Shown here: one piece after another, positions 1,457 to 64,000 of the stretch
How the letters are laid out: each line of letters begins with the position of its first letter
How positions within the stretch are numbered: the first letter of the stretch is position 1
Source: an uncultured Verrucomicrobiota bacterium
GTDB taxonomy: Bacteria; Verrucomicrobiota; Kiritimatiellia; RFP12; UBA1067
Assembly (NCBI GenBank): GCA_946610035.1
Contig: CAMOCC010000002.1
Span: forward strand, 4,254-68,253
Reading direction: 5' to 3'
Length of the DNA stretch: 64,000 nucleotides
The notes under the pieces: generated by a model
What the model was told of the DNA's origin: nothing
Databases searched by the model: none
What the model saw: the letters and a program-made list of their open reading frames with translations, nothing else
Position numbers and translations under genes: made by a program

Positions 1457-2182
1457 GTGAATAGAAAAAACAAGGTGAAGTACGGCAGGATACTGCTGAA
1501 GCTTTCGGGCGAAGTCCTCGGCAACCGGGAGACCGGCGAGTGCATCGACCCGAAGAATCTTGCTTTCATGGCCGAAAGGGTCAAGAAGATACACAAGATG
1601 GGCGTCCAGGTCGGCATCGTCCTCGGCGGCGGCAACATCTTCCGCGGGCTCACGGGCGCGGGGAAGGGCGTCGATCGCGTCACAGGCGACTCGATGGGCA
1701 TGCTCGCGACGGTCATCAACGCGCTCGCGATGATGAACGCGCTCGAGACGATCGGCGTCCCGACGCGCGTGATGACGGCCTTCGCCATCGACAAGATCGC
1801 CGAGCCGTTCGTTCAGCGCAAGGCGCTGCGCCACTTCGAGAAGGGGCGCGTCGTGATCTTCGCCGGCGGCACCGGGAACCCCTACTTCTCGACAGACTCC
1901 GCCGCGGCGCTCAGGGCGAGCGAGATCGGCGCCGGGGCGCTTCTCAAGGCGACGAAGGTCGACGGGATCTACACGGCCGACCCGAAGAAGGACCCGAAGG
2001 CGAAGAAGTATTCGACGCTCAAGTACGAGACGGCGCTCGAGAAGCGGCTCAAGGTCATGGACTCCGCCGCGTTCGCGCTTTGCATGGACAACGAGATCCC
2101 GATCGTCGTGTTCGACTTCTTCGACGGCGACGCGCTCGAGCGCGTCGTGAAGGGAGAGGCGGTGGGGACCATAGTGAGTTAA
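1457..2182 (+). CDS. pyrH: UMP kinase
   Basis: KYGRILLKLSGEVL...GGGNIFRG...MLATVINALA...FAGGTGNPYFSTDSAAALRA is the classic PyrH pattern. Start uncertain: GTG 1457 (7 nt after the -10) or GTG 1475. Confidence 0.9.
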   Translation: MNRKNKVKYGRILLKLSGEVLGNRETGECIDPKNLAFMAERVKKIHKMGVQVGIVLGGGNIFRGLTGAGKGVDRVTGDSMGMLATVINALAMMNALETIGVPTRVMTAFAIDKIAEPFVQRKALRHFEKGRVVIFAGGTGNPYFSTDSAAALRASEIGAGALLKATKVDGIYTADPKKDPKAKKYSTLKYETALEKRLKVMDSAAFALCMDNEIPIVVFDFFDGDALERVVKGEAVGTIVS

Positions 2183-2210
2183 GAGTTAGGAGTTGGGAGT
2201 TAAAAGTTAA
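2176..2210. repeat. five tandem heptamers GAGTTRR starting at the pyrH stop codon
   Basis: gagttaa gagttag gagttgg gagttaa aagttaa read directly from the sequence. It is an AT-rich island in GC-rich DNA. Confidence 0.8.
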
Positions 2211-2257
2211 GGGCGAGAGCCTTGATCGAAAAGTCTTGAAAACAAGAGGAACCAAAA

Positions 2258-11074: not shown

Positions 11075-14000
11075 GTGAAAATTGCGCACATAGTCAGACG
11101 CTACGCCAGGAACGAATGGGGCGGAACGGAGACGGTCGTCTCCCACATAGCGACGGAGCAGCTCCGCCGCGGGGACGACGTGCGCATTTTCTTCACATCG
11201 GCCTGCCAGCCGCCCGGCTCGACGGAGGGGTATGCGTACTACTACCCGTACTGGCCCATGCCGGAGTCCGACCGCATAGCGCTGGACAAGAAGGGGGGCA
11301 GCCCCATCTCGCCGGCGCTCATGAGGGCCGTGGAGGACTTCAAGCCCGACCTCATCCACATACACGCGGGCGGGCGGCTCGCCTGCGCGGCGGCGGGGCT
11401 TGCGGAGGAGCTGTGCGTCCCGTCCGTCATGTCGCTGCACGGCGGCGCGATGGCGGTACCGGAGTCGGAAATGGAGGAGATGCTCCGTCCGATGAAGCGC
11501 AAGATACCCTACGGCGGCATCATCGACCGGCTAATGGGGCTCAATTTCGATCCTCTCGAGCAGGTCGACGCGATAATCTGCATCTCCTACGCCGAGAAGC
11601 GGAAGCTCGCCGAGAAGTATGGCGCGGGCCGGGTGCACTACCTGCCCAACGGCGTGGAACCGCCCGCCGAGGTGATCGGGCGCGGCAACGCCCGGAGCCG
11701 CGCGTCCCTTGCGGACCCCAGGGCCGTGAAGAACATCCTCTGCGTCTCGCGGATAGACTACCAGAAGAACCAGCTTGCGCTGGTGGAGCTCCTTGCCGGA
11801 CTTCCGAGCGCAAGGCTCACGCTTGTCGGACCCGTGACGGCGAAGTGGTACGGCGACAAGATACTCGCCCGCGTCCGCGAACTCGCCCTGGAGGACAGGT
11901 TCACGATGATCCCCGGCCTCCCGCCGGGAAGCGCGGAGCTGGAGGCGGAGTACGCCAAGGCGGACGTCTTCGTCCTGCCGAGCATACACGAGCCTTTCGG
12001 CATCGTCGCGCTGGAGGCGATGCAGCGAGGCATACCCCTCGTCGCGTCCGCCGTCGGCGGACTCGTCGACTTCGTGCACGACGGCAAGAACGGGCTCCTC
12101 TTCGACCCCGCCGCGCCGGACAGCCTCAAGTACGCCTTCTCGCGCTTCGTCATGGACGAGGCGCTGGCCGCGCGGATAGCGGAGGGGGGGCGCAGGACGG
12201 CGTCCGGTTTCATGTGGCCGGCGATCGTCGACAGGCTGGAGGGGATATACAGGGAGACGGTGCTCGGAGTCAAGACCGAAGGCTTTGTGAAGCGCGTCAC
12301 TGGCGGACGGGACGTGTCCATCCTCGTGAGGTCCCGCAACGAGGCGCGATACCTTGAGAGGACGCTTGCGGGCATCGAGGCCCAGCACTCCACGCGCATA
12401 CTGGAGGTGATAGTCTGCGACGACGCGTCGACGGACGATTCGCTGTACGTCGTCGAGGCGGCGAAGACGCGGGCGGCGAGGTCCGGCAGGTACATGATAC
12501 GCACCATTCCGCCTCCCGACGGCGAGTACCGTCCGGGGCGGATGCTCAACGCTATGGTGAAGGCGGCGTCCGGGCGTGTGATAGTCTTCAACAATGCGGA
12601 CGCCGTGCCGCTCGACTGCGACTGGCTCGAGAACCTGATTGCGCCGCTCGACTGCGGGCGGGCGGACGTCGTGTTCGCGAACCAGCTGCCTCGCCCCGAC
12701 GCCGACGTGCTGGTGAAGAAGGACTCCGTCAGGGCATTCGGGAACGGGCTCGTCTCCGCCGACTGGCCGCACTTCTTCTCGCTTGCGTCGTCGGCCGCGA
12801 TGAAGTACGACCTTCAGAAGTACCCCTTCGACGAAACGCTCATATACTCCGAGGACGTCGAATGGGCGAACAGGCGCAAGGGCTTCAGGCGCGTCTACTC
12901 GCCGCTTTCGCGCGTCGAGCACTCCCACGACTACACGAACGACCAGCTGGTCCGCCGCTTCTACGGAGAGGGGTATGCGGACGCGCAGATATTCGGCGAC
13001 CGGCCGGCGCCCTTTGCGAAGACGTTCCTTCGCGTGCTGGCGGAGTCCCTGCGCGACGCCAGGTATGTAATGGACGGTTCGGCGTCCGTCGGCTTCTGGA
13101 AGGGCCTGTGTACGATGCTTTCGTCCCCGAGGCGGCGCTGGCTGCAGAGGATGAGCCACGAGCGCGGAGTCGCCGATTTCCGCGAGGGGCGTCCGCCGCG
13201 CTACGTCTCCACCTCCGTCCGCCAGCGGCAGGCCGCCTGCGGCAAGACGCCGACCGTCCTGTTCACGGGGGTGTATCCGAAGTACCACGGCGGACTGGAG
13301 CGGTTCGCCGCGAGAATGGCGGACCTCCTGCGCTCGCGCGGGTACAAGGTCGACGTGATGGGCGATCCGCCGGAGGACGCGTCCGGCTACTCATACGTGC
13401 TCATGCACAAGGTCCCGCCGTCGCCCGCGGCGCTCAGGCGGCTGAAGTCGCAGTGCGGCGGACGGCTTCACTTCTTCGCGCACGACCACGAGCTCTACTG
13501 CCTGAGGCGGCACGGGTACACGCCGTTCAGGTGCAACTGCACGAGGGCGTATTCGCCGGCAAGATGCAGGCTCTGCGCGATGGTGACGCGTCCGCGATGG
13601 ATCTGGCGGGCGCTGACGCGTCCGATGCGCGCGTTCTTCGCCGAGATGAAGGGCGTGAGGATTTTCGCGCCGTCGGCCTTCACGCGGGACGCGCTTCTCA
13701 GAAACGGCTTCAATGCCGACGACATATCCATCGTCGCTCCCTTCTTCCATGAGGGGGAGATAGGGTCGAGTAGGGTCGATTTAGGGTCGACGCTAAAAGA
13801 CCCTAAACTGACGCTAAAAGACCCTAAAAAGACCCTAAAAGACCCTAACTCGACCCTAAAAGGCCCTAAACCGCTAAACCTCCTCTTCATGGGCCAGCTC
13901 ATCGCCGGGAAGGGGGTTGACATCCTCCTCGACGCCGTGAACCTACTCGACATCCCCTTCAGGCTGACCGTGGTCGGCTCCGGGCGCGACGAGGCGAAGC

Positions 14001-59597: not shown

Positions 59598-59676
59598 GAT
59601 CGTCGCTCAGGGGGTTGCGTCGCTGTAGGGGGTTGCGTCGCCGTAGGGGGTTGCGTCGCTCCGCGACGGAACCCCC
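59598..59676. repeat. about 3.5 tandem copies of an 18-nt unit GGGGGTTGCGTCGCYGTA; the last copy forms a hairpin
   Basis: Full copies at 59610-27, 59628-45 and 59646-63. GGGGGTTGCGTCGC (59646-59) pairs with GCGACGGAACCCCC (59663-76) with one mismatch. Begins 16 nt after the GH95 stop. Confidence 0.85.
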
Positions 59677-59732
59677 TGCGGCCCCCATTCCCCGTTCCAT
59701 CGAACTTGTCATGGAAAGTTCCGGCAAAATAA

Positions 59733-59741: not shown

Positions 59742-59768
59742 ATGCTGTGTTGGAAAGGAAAGCATCAC

Positions 59769-60737
59769 ATGGACAGATATGAAACGATGCCGTATGTGCG
59801 GTGCGGACGAAGCGGACTCAGGCTTTCGCGCGTCGCGTTCGGGCTCTGGCACAACTTCGGGACGTACGACGACCGCGCGAACATGGCGCGTCTCGTCACG
59901 CGCGCGTTCGACCTGGGCATAACCCACTTCGACCTCGCGAACAACTACGGTCCGGAGCCTGGCTCGGCGGAGGAGAACTTCGGGCGGCTCCTCGACTCGG
60001 AACTGAAGGGACACCGCGACGAGCTGATCGTCACGACGAAGGCGGGACATCTCATGTGGCCGGGTCCGTACGGCGACTGGGGTTCGCGCAAGTCGCTGAT
60101 CGCGAGTCTCGACCAGAGCCTCAGGCGCATGAAGCTCGACTATGTCGACATCTTCTATTCCCACCGCCCCGATCCGGAGACGCCGCTGGAAGAGACGATG
60201 GGCGCGCTTTCGGACATCGTGCGCTCGGGCAAGGCGCTCTACGTCGGAATTTCGAAGTATTCTGCCGCGCAGACGCGCGAAGCGGCGGCGATCCTGAAGC
60301 GCAACGGCACGCCGCTGCTCATACACCAGTTCCGCTACAACATGTTCACGCGCGGCATCGAGAAGGACGGACTTCTCGACGCGCTGGAAGAGACCGGTGC
60401 CGGCGGCATCTGCTTCTCGCCCCTCGCGCAGGGGCTTCTGTCGTCGCGTTACCTTGACGGAGTTCCCGCCGACAGCAGGGCGGCGAAGAACGCCTTTCTG
60501 AAGACCGACACCATTACGCCTGAAATGCGCGCGAAGCTTGCAAGACTGAACGATTTCGCCGTGTCACGCGGCCTGACGCTCGCTGAACTCGCTCTCAAGT
60601 GGGTGCTCCGCGACCGGCGCGTAACTTCCGTGCTGATGGGCGCGAGCCGCGTCAGCCAGCTTGAGGAAAACCTCGGTTTCCTGCAGAAACCGGACCTCGG
60701 TTCATCCGATCTGGAGGGAATCGAAGGTTTGCTGTGA
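59769..60737 (+). CDS. aldo/keto reductase (YghZ/Gpr-like)
   Basis: MPYVRCGRSGLRLSRVAFGLWHNFG, HFDLANNYGP, DIFYSHRPD, and the rest of the AKR fold. Confidence 0.85.
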   Translation: MDRYETMPYVRCGRSGLRLSRVAFGLWHNFGTYDDRANMARLVTRAFDLGITHFDLANNYGPEPGSAEENFGRLLDSELKGHRDELIVTTKAGHLMWPGPYGDWGSRKSLIASLDQSLRRMKLDYVDIFYSHRPDPETPLEETMGALSDIVRSGKALYVGISKYSAAQTREAAAILKRNGTPLLIHQFRYNMFTRGIEKDGLLDALEETGAGGICFSPLAQGLLSSRYLDGVPADSRAAKNAFLKTDTITPEMRAKLARLNDFAVSRGLTLAELALKWVLRDRRVTSVLMGASRVSQLEENLGFLQKPDLGSSDLEGIEGLL

Positions 60738-60750
60738 AGGGCTTTAAGGT

Positions 60751-60834
60751 TCCCCATTCCACGTTCCCTATCCCCCATTCCCCGTTCCCCGTTCCCCATT
60801 CCCCGTTCCCCAATCCCCGTTCCCCGTTCCCAAC
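60751..60834. repeat. twelve tandem heptamers TCCCCRT (minus strand: G4-tract array)
   Basis: tccccat tccacgt tccctat cccccat tccccgt tccccgt tccccat tccccgt tccccaa tccccgt tccccgt tcccaac. A 2-3 unit copy of the same motif is at 59682-59702. Confidence 0.9.
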
Positions 60835-60836
60835 AA

Positions 60837-60852
60837 ACTGGTATATACCAGT
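60837..60852. promoter_or_regulatory. perfect 16-bp palindrome ACTGGTATATACCAGT upstream of the second giant gene (candidate operator)
   Basis: Read directly. It ends 35 nt upstream of a TACAAT -10 candidate (60888-93). Confidence 0.4.
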
Positions 60853-60957
60853 AGAAAAAGGAATTGCGGGGAATGGTGAAAATTGTGTACAATGGCGGTG
60901 TTCGACGGGGGAAGTGTCCCTGCGTCGTTCACTTAAACCTTAAAAAAAGGAGCCAAA

Positions 60958-63900
60958 ATGAGTATTGTCCGCATGCTCAAGACATTCGCCGCGGCCGCGC
61001 TGGCCGTCGCTGCAACATGCGCCGCGCAAGCGGCTGAGGTGATATCCATCAACTTCACGCAGGACGGCTACGGCGCGCTTAAGGGCGACACCGTATATGC
61101 GAATCTGGCAGACGCGTCAATCACGGGCGCGGCCTGGAATACGTTTTCGGGCGCAAGCAGCGGTGGCGTTTCTGGAACATACACGCTCACAAATTACTGG
61201 GACGGCACGCAAGCTAAGTCGGACGGTACGGCAGTGGTATCATACGAAGCCAAAAACATGTGGCACCAGTCGGGCATGGCGGAGCCGTATGTCGGCTACC
61301 TGGACGACGGCGAGCACAACGGCGTCAAGGGTCCCACCGTGTCAGTGACGGGGATCCCATACGACGTCTACGACGTGATTGTGTATGTTAACACCACGGA
61401 CTCGACGTTCCGTCCAGTCACTGTCAACGGCTTCTCCTACTCTTATGTGGACGGCTCTACAGTCAAGGGTAGCACGGCCAACTGGGGCACTCGGCAAGAT
61501 GTACTTGAAGAAGGCAAGAACGCTATGCGTATCACCGGACTCACGGGCAAACTGTCCATTCAGGGTGGCAGCAGCAGCGGTGGACGCGGCTGTATCGCGG
61601 CTGTCCAGATTGTCAGAAATACCACAGCTGTGGTTGTGCCGGCGGTGAACTTCAAGTATCTATCCGGTCAGGGGAATGTAATTGAAACCACATCCGCCAA
61701 CTGGTATTCCGCCATAGACTACGCGGCAAAGTGGCACTGGGACCACAATGTCCGCTGCGAGCGCATCGCGTACGGGCGCAATGCTTTCTGCGTGATGCGC
61801 GCCAACAGCGCCCATCCCGGCACGGACGTCCTGTGGACCAACATGACGGCTTTCACAATGGCGTTCATCGTCGATGTCACAGACATGACTGGCGGCGACG
61901 ATCTTTGGAAGGTTATCGCGTGCATGGGCGGCAACGATGGAAGTGCGCTGACGCTTTTCAAGGATCCAGACGGTGGGGTTTCGCTCAGGCCGCGCACGGA
62001 TAGAACAGACAGGGACGACTACGTGCTGACGATTCCGGCGTCTGAGATTTCGCAGGGCTACCACCTTTTCGTCGTCACGTGCGACGTAAATGGGCAGAAG
62101 ACGACACTGCGCATGGATGACGGTGCGACAAGGGACATGAACTATGCCGTGCAGCCGACCGTCGGCTTTCAGATCGGCAAGAACTGGAACGGGACCCGTC
62201 CCGCGACATGGGGCTTTGGCGACGGACTCGGCGTTTACGCTGTTTTCGGATGGGAGAAGGTGCTGACGTCCGAGCAGATCGCGCTTCTCTACGCCGACTA
62301 CGCCGACGCACTCGGCACGCCGGTCAACTACAACTTCACGAGCGACTTCAACAACGGACACGACAGCGGCGTTCTCTATATACCGACGATGACGGGCGAC
62401 AACGCGCTTCAGGGAACACGTGGAACGATTGAAATACCGACGAACTCGGTTGTCTCCGTTCCTTCCATCTGCCTTGGCAACAGCGGAACAGCCTACAATT
62501 ATACGTTCAACGTGAAGGGAACGCTGAACGTCACGGCCGCTTCGACGACCTACAACGTCTACAGCGAAAAGGGGAACAAGCGCGGCATACTCTTCGGACA
62601 CTGGGCGGGAACCGGCGTCGAAAACATCTACGGCACGCTCAACGCGCCCGATGCCTGGCTCGAGACGACATACTCCCACACGACTGAAACATTGAACATC
62701 ATCGGCGGCACGGTCAAGGTGCGCGGCATCTATGCCCGAAACGCCGATAGCATAGCGAGCTCGGCTACGATTTCGGACGGAGGCACGCTGGAAGTAGCGG
62801 AGCTGAAACTCGACAAGAACTGGCCGCTCATCTGCGGCGCAGGCACGCTGCGCGCCATCAGGTATGACATGACATCTACGGGTTTGACCGATGGCTGGGC
62901 TGTCTCGTTCAACGACGCGGAGGTCGGCACGACACTAGACCCGAACGGGCTCGCCATCAACTTCATGGGTGCGACGACAGGCGCGGGCAGGATTATCATC
63001 AACGATACCTCCGAAAATGCGGACGGCACGGTGTCGTTCGCTATGATGAGCGGGCTTTCCGGTCCCGTGGATGTCAGGTCGGGAACGCTCGACATCAAGA
63101 GCTCCCGCCCGTCTGGCGAACTGAGCTTCTCCGCAGGCGCGAAGCTGCGTCTGCTGGAGTCCGTCGCGGACGGCAACGGGCGCGTCGCGCTCAACATCGC
63201 AGCCGGTAGCGCCGCGCCCGACGTGACGATGTACCGGGCAGACGGCACGACGCTTCTTGAGACATCGGTGGAAACCGATCCAGCGACCGGAAAGATGTAC
63301 ATCGCCTACGAGTCCGATCTCCCGCCGGTCGTGAGCGGCGAGGCGTGCTGGTACGATTTCGAATTCGAGAACAACGGCTACACGTCCGTCGGCAGCAGCA
63401 AGACGACGCTCACCCGCGACGTGGGCAAGGGGATCGGCGCGCGCACCGGAACGGGCGCTGCGGGCGATTTCGCCGACGAACATTCGCTCTACACCTCGTC
63501 GCTCATGTACACGAAGATCACGTATCCAACGGAATGGTCCGCAGCGATCTACTGCACCCTCCCGAAGCTGAAAGACGCCGTCTTGATGGACTTCGGAACG
63601 GCTTTCGGCTGCATCGCGCTCATTGCTGGAGACACAGACAACGAGGTGAAGCTCGTCATGGCGACCAACGACACGCGCTATGTTCCGCTCGCGACGATGA
63701 CGGTTCCGAACGCGACGACGAGCCAGCACCTCTATGTGTTCGTCAAGCGAGACAATGGCGTCGACATCTATCTCGACGGCACGCTGTGGACGACATACTC
63801 CCAGACCGAAAGCATCGTCATCAACGACGGCTTCCAGCTTGGCGCAGTCTTCGGACAGGGCGGCAACACCGGCATGCACGACTTCTCGTACGCGAATGTC

Positions 63901-64000
63901 TACAACGCCGAAAACGAAGAAGAGACGCTCGGCATACTTCATTCGTCATACGTCGGCATGTTGAGGATATACGACGTCGCGATTTCCGAAGACACGGTGA
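60958..64000 (+). CDS. second giant secreted LamG-repeat protein, 5' part (3' end outside window); paralogue of the 31666 gene; absent from the supplied ORF track
   Basis: SD aaggag, then ATG 60958. Signal peptide MSIVRMLKTFAAAALAVAATCAAQA. I translated this frame by hand to position 63999 and found no stop. Long mirror ORFs on the minus strand agree. LamG-type tails VFGWEKVLTSEQIALLY and GMLRIYDVAISEDTV. Confidence 0.82.
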   Translation, partial: MSIVRMLKTFAAAALAVAATCAAQAAEVISINFTQDGYGALKGDTVYANLADASITGAAWNTFSGASSGGVSGTYTLTNYWDGTQAKSDGTAVVSYEAKNMWHQSGMAEPYVGYLDDGEHNGVKGPTVSVTGIPYDVYDVIVYVNTTDSTFRPVTVNGFSYSYVDGSTVKGSTANWGTRQDVLEEGKNAMRITGLTGKLSIQGGSSSGGRGCIAAVQIVRNTTAVVVPAVNFKYLSGQGNVIETTSANWYSAIDYAAKWHWDHNVRCERIAYGRNAFCVMRANSAHPGTDVLWTNMTAFTMAFIVDVTDMTGGDDLWKVIACMGGNDGSALTLFKDPDGGVSLRPRTDRTDRDDYVLTIPASEISQGYHLFVVTCDVNGQKTTLRMDDGATRDMNYAVQPTVGFQIGKNWNGTRPATWGFGDGLGVYAVFGWEKVLTSEQIALLYADYADALGTPVNYNFTSDFNNGHDSGVLYIPTMTGDNALQGTRGTIEIPTNSVVSVPSICLGNSGTAYNYTFNVKGTLNVTAASTTYNVYSEKGNKRGILFGHWAGTGVENIYGTLNAPDAWLETTYSHTTETLNIIGGTVKVRGIYARNADSIASSATISDGGTLEVAELKLDKNWPLICGAGTLRAIRYDMTSTGLTDGWAVSFNDAEVGTTLDPNGLAINFMGATTGAGRIIINDTSENADGTVSFAMMSGLSGPVDVRSGTLDIKSSRPSGELSFSAGAKLRLLESVADGNGRVALNIAAGSAAPDVTMYRADGTTLLETSVETDPATGKMYIAYESDLPPVVSGEACWYDFEFENNGYTSVGSSKTTLTRDVGKGIGARTGTGAAGDFADEHSLYTSSLMYTKITYPTEWSAAIYCTLPKLKDAVLMDFGTAFGCIALIAGDTDNEVKLVMATNDTRYVPLATMTVPNATTSQHLYVFVKRDNGVDIYLDGTLWTTYSQTESIVINDGFQLGAVFGQGGNTGMHDFSYANVYNAENEEETLGILHSSYVGMLRIYDVAISEDTV

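What the first reader, a model, noticed from the sequence alone, without database searches (positions are those of the whole stretch)
60751..60834. Twelve tandem heptamers (TCCCCRT), equivalent to a dense G-quadruplex motif on the minus strand, just upstream of the giant exoprotein promoter; the same motif also precedes the neighbouring reductase gene
The tract starts 14 nt after the aldo/keto reductase stop and ends about 55 nt before the -10 candidate of the 60958 gene. On the minus strand it reads as at least eight GGGG runs separated by 3-nt loops, which meets the canonical G4 pattern many times over. A shorter copy (cccccat tccccgt tccatcg, 59682-59702) lies upstream of the same reductase gene, so the gene is bracketed by the motif. 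Established analogy: in Haemophilus influenzae, 7-bp repeat number upstream of hmw1A/hmw2A tunes adhesin expression. Inference: repeat-number slippage or G4/i-motif formation could modulate expression of the surface protein.
Basis: partly seen in the sequence, partly recalled or inferred. Interest (0 to 1): 0.6.

Follow-up and report, generated by a model that had tools for sequence, protein, structure and literature searches.

The report
Dispersed G-rich heptamer microsatellite family
The twelve TCCCCRT repeats are real, but they are the longest copy of a slippage-prone 7-base microsatellite scattered about 30 times through this gut bacterium's genome, mostly inside genes where it is read in frame as a floppy glycine-rich loop, so it looks like a tolerated repeat rather than a dedicated switch for the neighbouring surface-protein gene.

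Summary
There are 12 tandem heptamers at 60750-60833, with eight consecutive GGGG runs on the minus strand, and a 2-unit copy at 59682-59702.

The regulatory reading is not supported.
- (GGGGAAY)n occurs in 29 arrays of at least 3 units in this 3.0-Mb genome. 23 lie inside long ORFs, 22 of those with the G-rich strand as sense, giving GNGE(R/W)G(T/M) loops.
- It is one of several heptamer families (179 arrays in all) confined to this genus.
- The array lies upstream of the operator, -35 and -10 of the exoprotein promoter. The same promoter module lacks the array in the sister species, in a metagenome orthologue and in one of five paralogues.
- In a conspecific contig (98% identity) the array sits at the same anchor after the reductase stop, but has about 3 units and a different gene follows. 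It therefore belongs to the reductase 3' flank and marks a strain-specific junction.

Slippage is supported: a coding array has 5, 8 or 14 units among relatives, always in 21-nt steps.

The closest known systems are the G4-forming heptamer SSRs of Xanthomonas and Nostoc, which also favour four units and have no known function. This is a new member of a known kind.

The parts
60750..60833 (-). 12-unit heptamer array. It reads (TTCCCCR)n on the + strand and (YGGGGAA)n on the - strand, which is the G-rich, G4-capable strand. It is the longest member of the genome-wide family.
   Evidence: TRF; pattern against shuffles; unit chain; G-run count and gquad fold.
59682..59702 (-). Short copy of the same motif: 2 units plus a degenerate one. 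It lies directly 3' of a REP-like hairpin and upstream of the reductase promoter. It is conserved in conspecific contigs L154 and L157 (one base differs in L157).
59601..59677 (+). REP-like element. An 18-nt arm (CGTCGCTGTAGGGGGTTG) is repeated 3.4 times and ends in the hairpin GGGGGTTGCGTCGC-TCC-GCGACGGAACCCCC. The hairpin core CGTCGC-N3-GCGACG gives 206 strand-wise matches in the genome. 53 of these carry the SAACCCCC tail, and only 3 of those, all on this contig, are followed by heptamers.
   Evidence: TRF; genome scan. The arm copy number differs in L154.
59769..60737 (+). Aldo/keto reductase gene (an alternative start is at 59742). The array begins 13 nt after its stop codon, at the same anchor as in strain L157.
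   Evidence: Pfam PF00248, E 5.7e-69.
60837..60852 (.). Perfect 16-bp palindrome ACTGGTATATACCAGT, the likely operator of a GntR/periplasmic-binding-protein-type regulator. It is the first of five copies on this contig. The other four lie beyond the window end, at contig positions 71409, 76866, 78957 and 84430.
   Evidence: regulator gene identified by Pfam.
60864..60893 (+). Predicted promoter: TTGCGG, an 18-nt spacer, then TACAAT. The -35 hexamer lies 11 nt after the palindrome. The same layout is found in four of the five paralogues and in G013 and L121.
   Evidence: By eye on the aligned modules. The stricter consensus scan did not list it, so it is an inference.
60958..63999 (+). 5' 59% of a 1721-aa secreted protein with one PATR repeat (the 'giant exoprotein'). 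It is the first gene of an alpha-mannan-type glycan utilisation locus.

Best explanation
The array is the largest copy of a lineage-specific dispersed microsatellite, (GGGGAAY)n. This is a G-rich member of the long heptanucleotide simple-sequence repeats known from a few bacterial groups.

Shown here:
- The family is spread over the genome and is restricted to one genus.
- Arrays are gained, lost and resized between close relatives.
- Inside genes only frame-preserving lengths survive. The G-rich strand is almost always the sense strand, so the array is translated as a hydrophilic Gly-rich loop.

Inferred:
- Arrays grow and shrink by replication slippage. Seven-base loops are too large for MutS-type mismatch repair (established knowledge from E. 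coli).
- They persist wherever they do no harm, that is in spacers and in length-variable stretches of proteins.

At this site the array belongs to the 3' flank of the reductase gene and lies at a strain-specific junction. It most likely arose when the short array after the reductase gene joined an array that precedes the palindrome-promoter modules of the glycan locus. It sits outside the operator/-35/-10 unit. I therefore take it to be near-neutral for the exoprotein promoter. Any G4, i-motif or C-rich-RNA effect would be a side effect, not a designed switch.
For: - Family size. There are 29 arrays of at least 3 units, 23 inside ORFs of 270-2712 aa that show the coding GC3 signature, and 22 of those 23 have the G-rich strand as sense. 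The genome is about 86% coding by a crude ORF mask, so there is no significant avoidance of genes and no promoter bias.
- Other families. The genome holds 179 heptamer arrays in several families. Families whose unit contains a stop codon on both strands are nearly all intergenic (2 of 28 coding). Stop-free families are mostly coding and strongly oriented.
- Taxonomic range. The motif is found only within the genus: 13 of 41 relatives, and none of 16 genomes from other families of the order. In other species 9 of 16 arrays are coding, and 8 of those 9 have the G-rich strand as sense.
- Recent turnover. Seven fully aligned orthologous sites in the sister species G013 (flanks 81-93% identical) lack the array. 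The net length differences are 54, 15, 12, 30, 39, 18 and 27 nt, all multiples of 3 and not of 7. An eighth site aligned on one flank only.
- GH29 loop. Every homologue aligned from the 80 loci of other phyla lacks the GH29 insert.
- Length alleles. In one gene the array has 5, 8 or 14 units, with an exact 21-nt difference at the DNA level.
- Preferred size. Four units is the mode (17 arrays, against 4 with three units and 2 with five). Rehm et al. 2015 (PMC4692102) report the same for GGGAATC and GGGGAYT.
- This locus. The module of palindrome, -35, -10 and leader is conserved without an array in G013, in L119-L121 and in paralogue 84430. The paralogues carry 12, about 2.5, 5 and 5 units.
- Conspecific L157 (98.0% identity over 1125 nt) has about 3 units at the same anchor after the reductase stop, followed by unrelated DNA.
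- Conspecific L154 (98.1% identity over 4.9 kb) has neither the array nor the exoprotein gene here.
Against: - Four of the five paralogous palindrome promoters in this genome carry C-rich heptamers at exactly the same place, abutting CACAAACTGG. This could reflect selection rather than common descent or conversion.
- This array is the longest in the genome and stands before a surface-protein gene, the classic setting for contingency loci.
- G4 or i-motif effects on transcription were not tested.
- No RNA or read data could be consulted.
- The comparison contigs L154 and L157 are short-read assemblies that end in repeats, so their junctions may be mis-assembled.
- Slippage alone does not explain why the same few heptamers seed many unrelated sites. 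At several sites the sister species has no similar proto-sequence.
Confidence: 0.7

Rival explanations
1. Expression tuning or phase variation of the exoprotein. Slippage changes the unit number, or a G4 or i-motif forms, and this changes how the GntR-type regulator or RNA polymerase uses the promoter just downstream.
For: - The array is mutable: 3 units against 12 at the same anchor, and 5, 8 or 14 units at a coding site.
- It abuts the operator (3 nt between array and palindrome) and precedes a secreted PATR protein.
- Three other paralogous promoters carry arrays at the same position.
- G4s near bacterial promoters can raise or lower expression depending on their position (statement in PMC4692102).
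Against: - The array is upstream of the operator, -35 and -10, so spacing within the promoter is unaffected.
- It is not in the predicted 5'-UTR, unlike the hmw repeats (PMC12721329).
- The module lacks the array in G013, L121 and paralogue 84430.
- In L157 the array stays with the reductase gene and not with the promoter.
- The family shows no promoter bias: 23 of 29 arrays are in genes.
- Rehm et al. found no regulatory role for the analogous families.
Confidence: 0.12
2. A 3'-end element of the reductase gene. Read as RNA, the array is 84 nt of unstructured, C-rich, G-poor sequence, which is rut-like, and the template strand can form G4. Either property could stop read-through from the reductase gene by Rho-dependent termination or a polymerase block. 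This would insulate the regulated glycan locus.
For: - The anchor 13 nt after the stop codon is conserved between strains.
- No intrinsic terminator is predicted between the reductase stop and the next promoter.
- The array RNA has essentially no Watson-Crick structure. In the DNA fold of the array alone the z-score is +0.63, and the array stays unpaired in the centroid RNA fold.
- The analogous Xanthomonas repeats sit on average 28 nt after the upstream ORF (PMC4692102).
Against: - Three units in L157, or none in L154, L155 and L156, evidently suffice for those strains.
- Most family members are inside genes, where a terminator would be harmful, although there the opposite strand is transcribed.
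- Rho dependence is untested, and the requirements of Rho in this phylum are unknown.
Confidence: 0.1
3. Arrays are not locally born microsatellites but are laid down by a specific process. Candidates are templated filler synthesis during break repair, or copying from other arrays by template switching. Arrays then act as recombination joints that reshuffle genes.
For: - At several orthologous sites the sister species has unrelated sequence of different length in place of the array, a deletion-plus-insertion pattern.
- One protein loop carries GGGGAAY, an AT-rich GTGTAAAAT-like repeat or an AAGAGGG-type repeat in different relatives.
- Homology between G000 and L157 ends 18 nt inside the window array, and in L154 it ends 39 nt before the array.
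- The same few heptamers recur at dozens of unrelated sites.
Against: - No enzyme or template was identified.
- No target-site duplications or conserved flanks were seen.
- Length-variable protein stretches would accumulate any tolerated repeat through selection alone.
- The exact 21-nt step alleles are what plain slippage predicts.
- Junctions in short-read contigs are unreliable.
Confidence: 0.08

Closest known systems
G-quadruplex-forming heptameric SSR families: GGGAATC in Xanthomonas and GGGGA(C/T)T in Nostoc/Anabaena PCC 7120 (Rehm et al. 2015, PMC4692102). These are the G-rich subset of the long SSRs of Mrazek and, from memory, overlap the cyanobacterial STRR1 repeats of Mazel et al. 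1990.
   Same: - A 7-nt unit made of a G-run plus an A/T-rich 3-4-nt spacer.
- Tens to hundreds of arrays dispersed over the chromosome.
- Array lengths from 2 to more than 10 units, with a clear mode at four.
- Length and presence differ between close relatives.
- Arrays often lie just after the stop codon of the upstream gene.
- No function is known.
   Different: - The unit is GGGGAAY, and the host is an uncultured gut bacterium of the PVC group (NCBI label Lentisphaerota, nearest hits Kiritimatiellia).
- 79% of arrays here are intragenic and nearly all are on the sense strand. In Xanthomonas 7-11% are intragenic and in Nostoc 32%, and those families are under-represented on the coding strand.
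- G4 formation was shown by CD for those oligonucleotides. Here it is only predicted.
Haemophilus influenzae hmw1A/hmw2A (ATCTTTC)n repeats (PMC12721329, PMC8262952)
   Same: A 7-nt tandem repeat upstream of a large surface-protein gene, with a mutable unit number.
   Different: - The hmw repeats are transcribed in the 5'-UTR, pair with a G-rich arm and are processed by RNase III, and expression falls as unit number rises.
- Here the array is upstream of the operator and promoter, is absent from orthologous promoters, and belongs to a genome-wide family found mostly in enzyme genes.
Rickettsia palindromic elements
   Same: A dispersed repeat that survives inside many unrelated genes because it stays in frame and, by inference here, lands in tolerant surface loops.
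   Different: RPEs are palindromic elements of about 100-150 bp with a fixed sequence. Here the repeat is a tandem array of a 7-nt unit that is open in all six frames and changes length in 21-nt steps.
Neisseria gonorrhoeae pilE-upstream G4 (cited in PMC4692102; details from memory)
   Same: A G4-capable sequence upstream of a surface-protein gene, at a recombination-prone place.
   Different: The pilE element is a single defined 16-nt G4 with its own sRNA promoter, and it drives gene conversion from silent cassettes. No cassettes or sRNA promoter were seen here, and the motif is a multi-copy SSR.

Membership tests
Dispersed G4-capable heptameric SSR (Rehm/Mrazek type) | Tandem 7-nt unit with a G-run of at least 3 and a short spacer | tested here: met
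   (YGGGGAA)12 on the minus strand, with eight consecutive GGGG runs and 3-nt loops.
Dispersed G4-capable heptameric SSR (Rehm/Mrazek type) | Many arrays dispersed over the genome | tested here: met
   29 arrays of at least 3 units on 17 contigs. Comparable numbers of hits occur in five other species of the genus.
Dispersed G4-capable heptameric SSR (Rehm/Mrazek type) | Unit number varies between related genomes | tested here: met
   12 units against about 3 at the window anchor. 5, 8 or 14 units at one coding site. Absent at 7 fully aligned orthologous sites of G013.
Dispersed G4-capable heptameric SSR (Rehm/Mrazek type) | Preference for four units | tested here: met
   Three units: 4 arrays. 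Four units: 17. Five units: 2.
Dispersed G4-capable heptameric SSR (Rehm/Mrazek type) | Over-represented in non-coding DNA and under-represented on the coding strand | tested here: not met
   23 of 29 arrays are intragenic, against about 86% coding DNA, and 22 of the 23 are on the sense strand. This is the main departure from the published families.
Dispersed G4-capable heptameric SSR (Rehm/Mrazek type) | G4 (and i-motif) formation of the oligonucleotide in vitro | not testable with these tools
   Only a ViennaRNA gquad prediction is available. CD or UV melting is needed.
Promoter or 5'-UTR SSR contingency switch (hmw type) | The repeat lies between promoter elements or in the transcribed leader | tested here: not met
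   The array ends 3 nt before the palindrome, 30 nt before the -35 and 54 nt before the -10. The promoter is predicted, not mapped.
Promoter or 5'-UTR SSR contingency switch (hmw type) | The repeat is kept at the orthologous promoter in related strains | tested here: not met
   The array is absent from the same module in G013, L119-L121 and paralogue 84430. In L157 it stays with the reductase gene.
Promoter or 5'-UTR SSR contingency switch (hmw type) | Within-population unit-number heterogeneity that correlates with expression | not testable with these tools
Coding-region frameshift phase-variation SSR | Alleles differ by single units, which shift the reading frame on or off | tested here: not met
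   The alleles seen differ by 3 or 9 units (21 or 63 nt) and all keep the frame. All 23 intragenic arrays in G000 are in frame.

The most novel reading that the evidence does not exclude
The heptamer arrays of this genus may not be passive microsatellites. They may be laid down by a specific templated process, such as filler synthesis or template switching at DNA breaks. That process would repeatedly write the same few stop-free heptamers into breaks, replacing native sequence in protein loops and spacers. The arrays would then serve as short homology patches that recombine promoter modules and genes. The window array would be one such joint, between the reductase 3' flank and a glycan-locus promoter.
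Probability: 0.1. Interest if true: 0.7.

Novelty: new member of a known kind. Interest (0 to 1): 0.38.

Why it matters
- For the exoprotein gene, this removes a tempting but unsupported story. The promoter is governed by a palindromic operator shared by five promoters of a mannan-type glycan locus, not by the repeat.
- For repeat biology, heptanucleotide SSR families have been known since the cyanobacterial STRRs and still have no known origin or function. This genus offers several coexisting families and very recent gains and losses between genomes 92-98% identical.
- It also shows an unusual outcome. A G4-capable family sits mainly on the sense strand inside enzyme genes and is translated as GNGERGT loops, with alleles that differ by whole 21-nt steps.
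- Such arrays inflate loop-length variation in carbohydrate-active enzymes and can break assemblies. They should not be mistaken for contingency loci in annotation.

Tried and rejected
- Exact look-up of the reductase protein in public assemblies failed for both candidate start codons. A homology search followed by look-ups of near-identical proteins did work.
- DNA search for the orthologous junction across 31 genomes of the genus returned only array-to-array hits and one promoter module. The reductase-exoprotein junction is not conserved.
- Association of REP hairpins with heptamers: rejected as a general rule. Only 3 of 53 oriented REP copies are followed by heptamers, and all 3 are local paralogues.
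- The inverted 'GGGGAAT' copy at 60868-60880 as a partner for an hmw-like hairpin: rejected. It overlaps the -35 region and is not conserved in G013 (gggattgcgatgaatgg). The RNA fold z-score of -2.3 is unremarkable.
- Known RNA families: none found. One chance-level hit, E 0.59.
- Frameshift-type phase variation of the host genes: no out-of-frame allele was seen.
- G4 as the common cause of all the arrays: rejected. Equally abundant families (AACCACC, AAAATGG, AACTCTT) have no G-runs.

Full report
**Observation**

The sequence at 60750-60833 is a tandem array of twelve 7-nt units.
- TRF reports 11.9 copies at 60749-60831.
- The two-unit pattern occurs 10 times in the window, all at this locus, against 0.3 expected.
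- The array starts 13-14 nt after the stop codon (60735-60737) of an aldo/keto reductase gene (Pfam PF00248). It ends 54 nt before a TACAAT hexamer.
- The minus strand carries eight consecutive GGGG runs with 3-nt loops. A fold with the G-quadruplex option places two four-layer quadruplexes there.
- Neither strand of the array has Watson-Crick structure.
- The short copy at 59682-59702 exists and follows a REP-like hairpin.

**The array is one of a genome-wide family**

The window is contig C2:4254-68253 of a 3.03-Mb, 62% G+C assembly in 191 contigs.
- A tolerant scan finds 29 arrays of at least 3 units of TTCCCCR.
- 23 of them lie inside long ORFs (270-2712 aa) with the genome's coding GC3 signature. 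In 22 of those 23 the G-rich strand is the sense strand, so the array is read as cyclic permutations of G-N-G-E-(R/W)-G-(T/M).
- Because 7 and 3 share no factor, all three frames give the same 7-residue repeat. The unit has no stop codon in any of the six frames.
- Host genes are ordinary enzymes. By Pfam they include a pectate lyase/pectinesterase. By sequence resemblance they include GH29-like fucosidases and an integrase-like protein.
- About 86% of the genome is coding by a crude ORF mask. Six intergenic arrays out of 29 is therefore no significant enrichment.

That is essentially what is found.

**It is one of several heptamer families**

TRF on the whole genome gives 179 period-7 arrays of at least 3 copies.

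| Family | Arrays |
|---|---|
| AACCACC | 27 |
| AACGGGG + AATGGGG (this family) | 31 |
| AAAATGG | 16 |
| AACTCTT | 14 |
| AACTCCT | 10 |
| AAAATGT | 10 |

- Families whose unit contains a stop codon on both strands are almost entirely intergenic (2 of 28 coding).
- Stop-free families are mostly intragenic, with one strand strongly preferred as sense. AACCACC is 15:1, which reads as Pro/Thr-rich.
- This is the pattern expected if arrays arise anywhere and selection then removes those that truncate or disturb proteins.
- G4 potential cannot be the common cause, because most families have no G-runs.

**Taxonomic range and turnover**

- Three perfect GGGGAAY units occur in 13 of 41 related genomes, all in the same genus. 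None occur in 16 genomes from other families of the order.
- In other species of the genus 9 of 16 arrays are intragenic, and 8 of those 9 have the G-rich strand as sense. Two sites are shared with G000.
- I searched the sister species G013 with an 'empty-site' query built from the flanks of 27 arrays. Seven orthologous sites aligned over both flanks (81-93% identical) and an eighth on one flank only. None of the seven carries the array. The net length differences are 54, 15, 12, 30, 39, 18 and 27 nt, which are multiples of 3 and not of 7.
- At some of these sites G013 has a degenerate short array. At others it has unrelated sequence.
- In the GH29 paralogues the array lengthens a loop that reads W-K-N-G-K-G-D in homologues. 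Every homologue aligned from the 80 loci of other phyla lacks the insert.

**Direct evidence for slippage under a frame constraint**

- In the pectate lyase/pectinesterase gene on contig C76, G000 has 8 units. A contig that is 92.4% identical (L152) has 5 units, an exact 21-nt difference in otherwise identical local sequence.
- Among the 26 members of that protein's 90% cluster the loop has 5, 8 or 14 units.
- The same loop carries an AAGAGGG-type repeat in one member. In a relative of a neighbouring cluster (P0004, contig L153) it carries an AT-rich GTGTAAAAT-like repeat.
- No out-of-frame allele was seen, so these arrays are not frameshift switches.
- Seven-base loop-outs are larger than MutS-type repair handles. 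This is established for E. coli and inferred here. It fits the excess of long-unit repeats.

**The local setting**

Downstream of the array lies a perfect 16-bp palindrome, ACTGGTATATACCAGT (60837-60852). It is followed after 11 nt by TTGCGG, then an 18-nt spacer, then TACAAT, then a conserved leader and the ATG at 60958.
- The palindrome occurs five times in the genome, all within 20 kb on this contig. Each copy stands before a gene of a glycan-utilisation locus. The locus holds two PATR-type secreted proteins, GH43, an esterase, GH92, GH76 and GH125, and it includes a GntR/periplasmic-binding-protein regulator gene.
- The palindrome is therefore most likely that regulator's operator (inference).
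- The heptamers lie upstream of this unit. The five paralogues carry 12, about 2.5, 5, 5 and 0 units.
- The same module in G013 and in three metagenome contigs has none. One of those contigs has an orthologous signal-peptide start.
- Changing the unit number cannot alter spacing among operator, -35 and -10. The array is not in the predicted leader.
- By contrast, the hmw repeats of H. influenzae act as part of the transcribed 5'-UTR, through an RNase III-processed hairpin (PMC12721329).

**Strain comparison at this very site**

- A conspecific contig, L157, is 97.96% identical over 1125 nt covering the reductase gene. It has the array at the same anchor (ctttaagg|TTCCCCATTCCCCGTTCCTCA) but with only about 3 units. 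After that comes unrelated AT-rich DNA and a different gene. Homology with G000 ends 18 nt inside the array.
- Another conspecific contig, L154, is 98.1% identical over 4.9 kb. It diverges 25 nt before the reductase stop and joins esterase/GH92 sequence. It thus skips about 14 kb that include the array and both exoprotein genes.
- More distant reductase orthologues (94% and 91% amino-acid identity) have no array and have other neighbours.

The array is therefore tied to the reductase 3' flank, is length-polymorphic, and marks a strain-specific junction. My inference is that the 12-unit array is a joint. Its degenerate 5' units would come from the reductase flank and its perfect 3' units from an array preceding a palindrome module. 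Both comparison contigs are short-read assemblies ending in repeats, so this remains tentative.

**Comparison with what is known**

The closest described systems are the G-rich heptameric SSRs GGGAATC of Xanthomonas and GGGGA(C/T)T of Nostoc PCC 7120 (Rehm et al. 2015, PMC4692102).
- These form dispersed arrays of 2-26 units with a pronounced mode at four units. G4 and i-motif formation was shown by CD. They vary between close relatives, often lie just after the upstream ORF, and no regulatory role was found.
- The family here shares the unit architecture, dispersal, variability and the four-unit mode (17 arrays with four units, against 4 with three and 2 with five).
- It differs in motif and host. 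The main difference is that it is mostly intragenic and on the sense strand, where the published families are depleted.

I file it as a new member of that kind, not as an hmw-type switch, whose positional and conservation criteria were tested and not met.

**Verdict**

- Most likely (0.7): a tolerated, slippage-prone dispersed microsatellite with no dedicated role at the exoprotein promoter.
- Expression tuning (0.12).
- A read-through insulator at the reductase 3' end, through C-rich rut-like RNA or a template-strand G4 (0.10).
- An active templated or recombination-joint process (0.08).

The last three cannot be excluded without transcript, read and reporter data.

No Rfam family matches the region.

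Earlier notes of this scan on the same genome reached a similar view for the AAAATGG family. They also described the palindrome and the exoprotein. I re-derived the points I use from my own calls.

Noticed in passing
window 60837-60852; further copies outside the window at contig C2 71409, 76866, 78957 and 84430: The 16-bp palindrome ACTGGTATATACCAGT occurs five times, always 11 nt (four cases) before a TTGCGS -35 of a glycan-locus gene. A GntR + periplasmic-binding-protein regulator gene (C2 83326-84426) ends 4 nt before the fifth copy. This looks like a small regulon with its repressor or activator. Among 117 genomes of the genus, only G013 has the palindrome, and only once.
   Followed up: partly
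window 59601-59677, and roughly 100 sites genome-wide: A REP-like hairpin family, GTT(G/C)CGTCGCGGAGCGACG(C/G)AACCCCCTG. The core pattern gives 206 strand-wise matches. Copies are often tandem or have duplicated arms. The arm copy number differs between G000 and the 98%-identical contig L154.
   Followed up: partly
contig C76 ~1141-1196 (outside the window); loci L152, L153; proteins P0247, P0253: One loop of a pectate lyase/pectinesterase carries different repeat families in different relatives: GGGGAAY with 5, 8 or 14 units, an AT-rich GTGTAAAAT-like repeat, or an AAGAGGG-type repeat. Total protein length is sometimes conserved. The same site is hit repeatedly.
   Followed up: partly
window ~60712 onward, against locus L154: A conspecific contig (98.1% identical) lacks about 14 kb after the reductase gene, including both PATR exoprotein genes, a BSP-type peptidase, an ATPase and GH43. 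It joins a fragment of the esterase gene to GH92. The exoprotein genes are strain-variable, or that contig is chimeric.
   Followed up: partly
locus L121 11489-11640: A metagenome contig has the same promoter module and an orthologous signal peptide (MSIVRRLKSF...). Its ORF is only 50 aa and fuses the first ~39 residues to the last 13 residues of the 1721-aa protein. This is an internal deletion allele or an assembly collapse.
   Followed up: no
genomes G003 and G017: GGGGAAY hits are very unevenly split between the two strands of the deposited contigs (20 against 3, and 17 against 1). Contig orientation should be arbitrary, so this is unexplained. It may be an assembler orientation rule or a strand bias on long contigs.
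   Followed up: no
window 2176-2211 and 13789-13871: Other dispersed short tandem repeats occur in the same window: (GAGTTAA)5, from a stop-containing and intergenic-only family, and a 10/11-nt GACCCTAAAA array. They belong to the same genome-wide phenomenon.
   Followed up: no
contigs C15 27715-27858 and C50 4788-4881 (outside the window): Composite repeat blocks. An 8-mer array (GGAATTGT-like) is followed by CTTCCCT-type heptamers and then TTCCCCR units. The blocks are flanked by copies of a second hairpin repeat (GACGCGGCTGGAAGCCGCGTCTCC). Different repeat families cluster at the same intergenic spots.
   Followed up: no
contigs C17 30662, C17 39614 and C83 1679 (outside the window): Three GH29-like paralogues carry the array at the same loop (TPF(W/R)R-GTGNGE(W/R)(G/E)TG-RD). 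This means either an insertion that predates the gene duplications or parallel seeding on the native Gly-rich WKNGKGD loop.
   Followed up: partly
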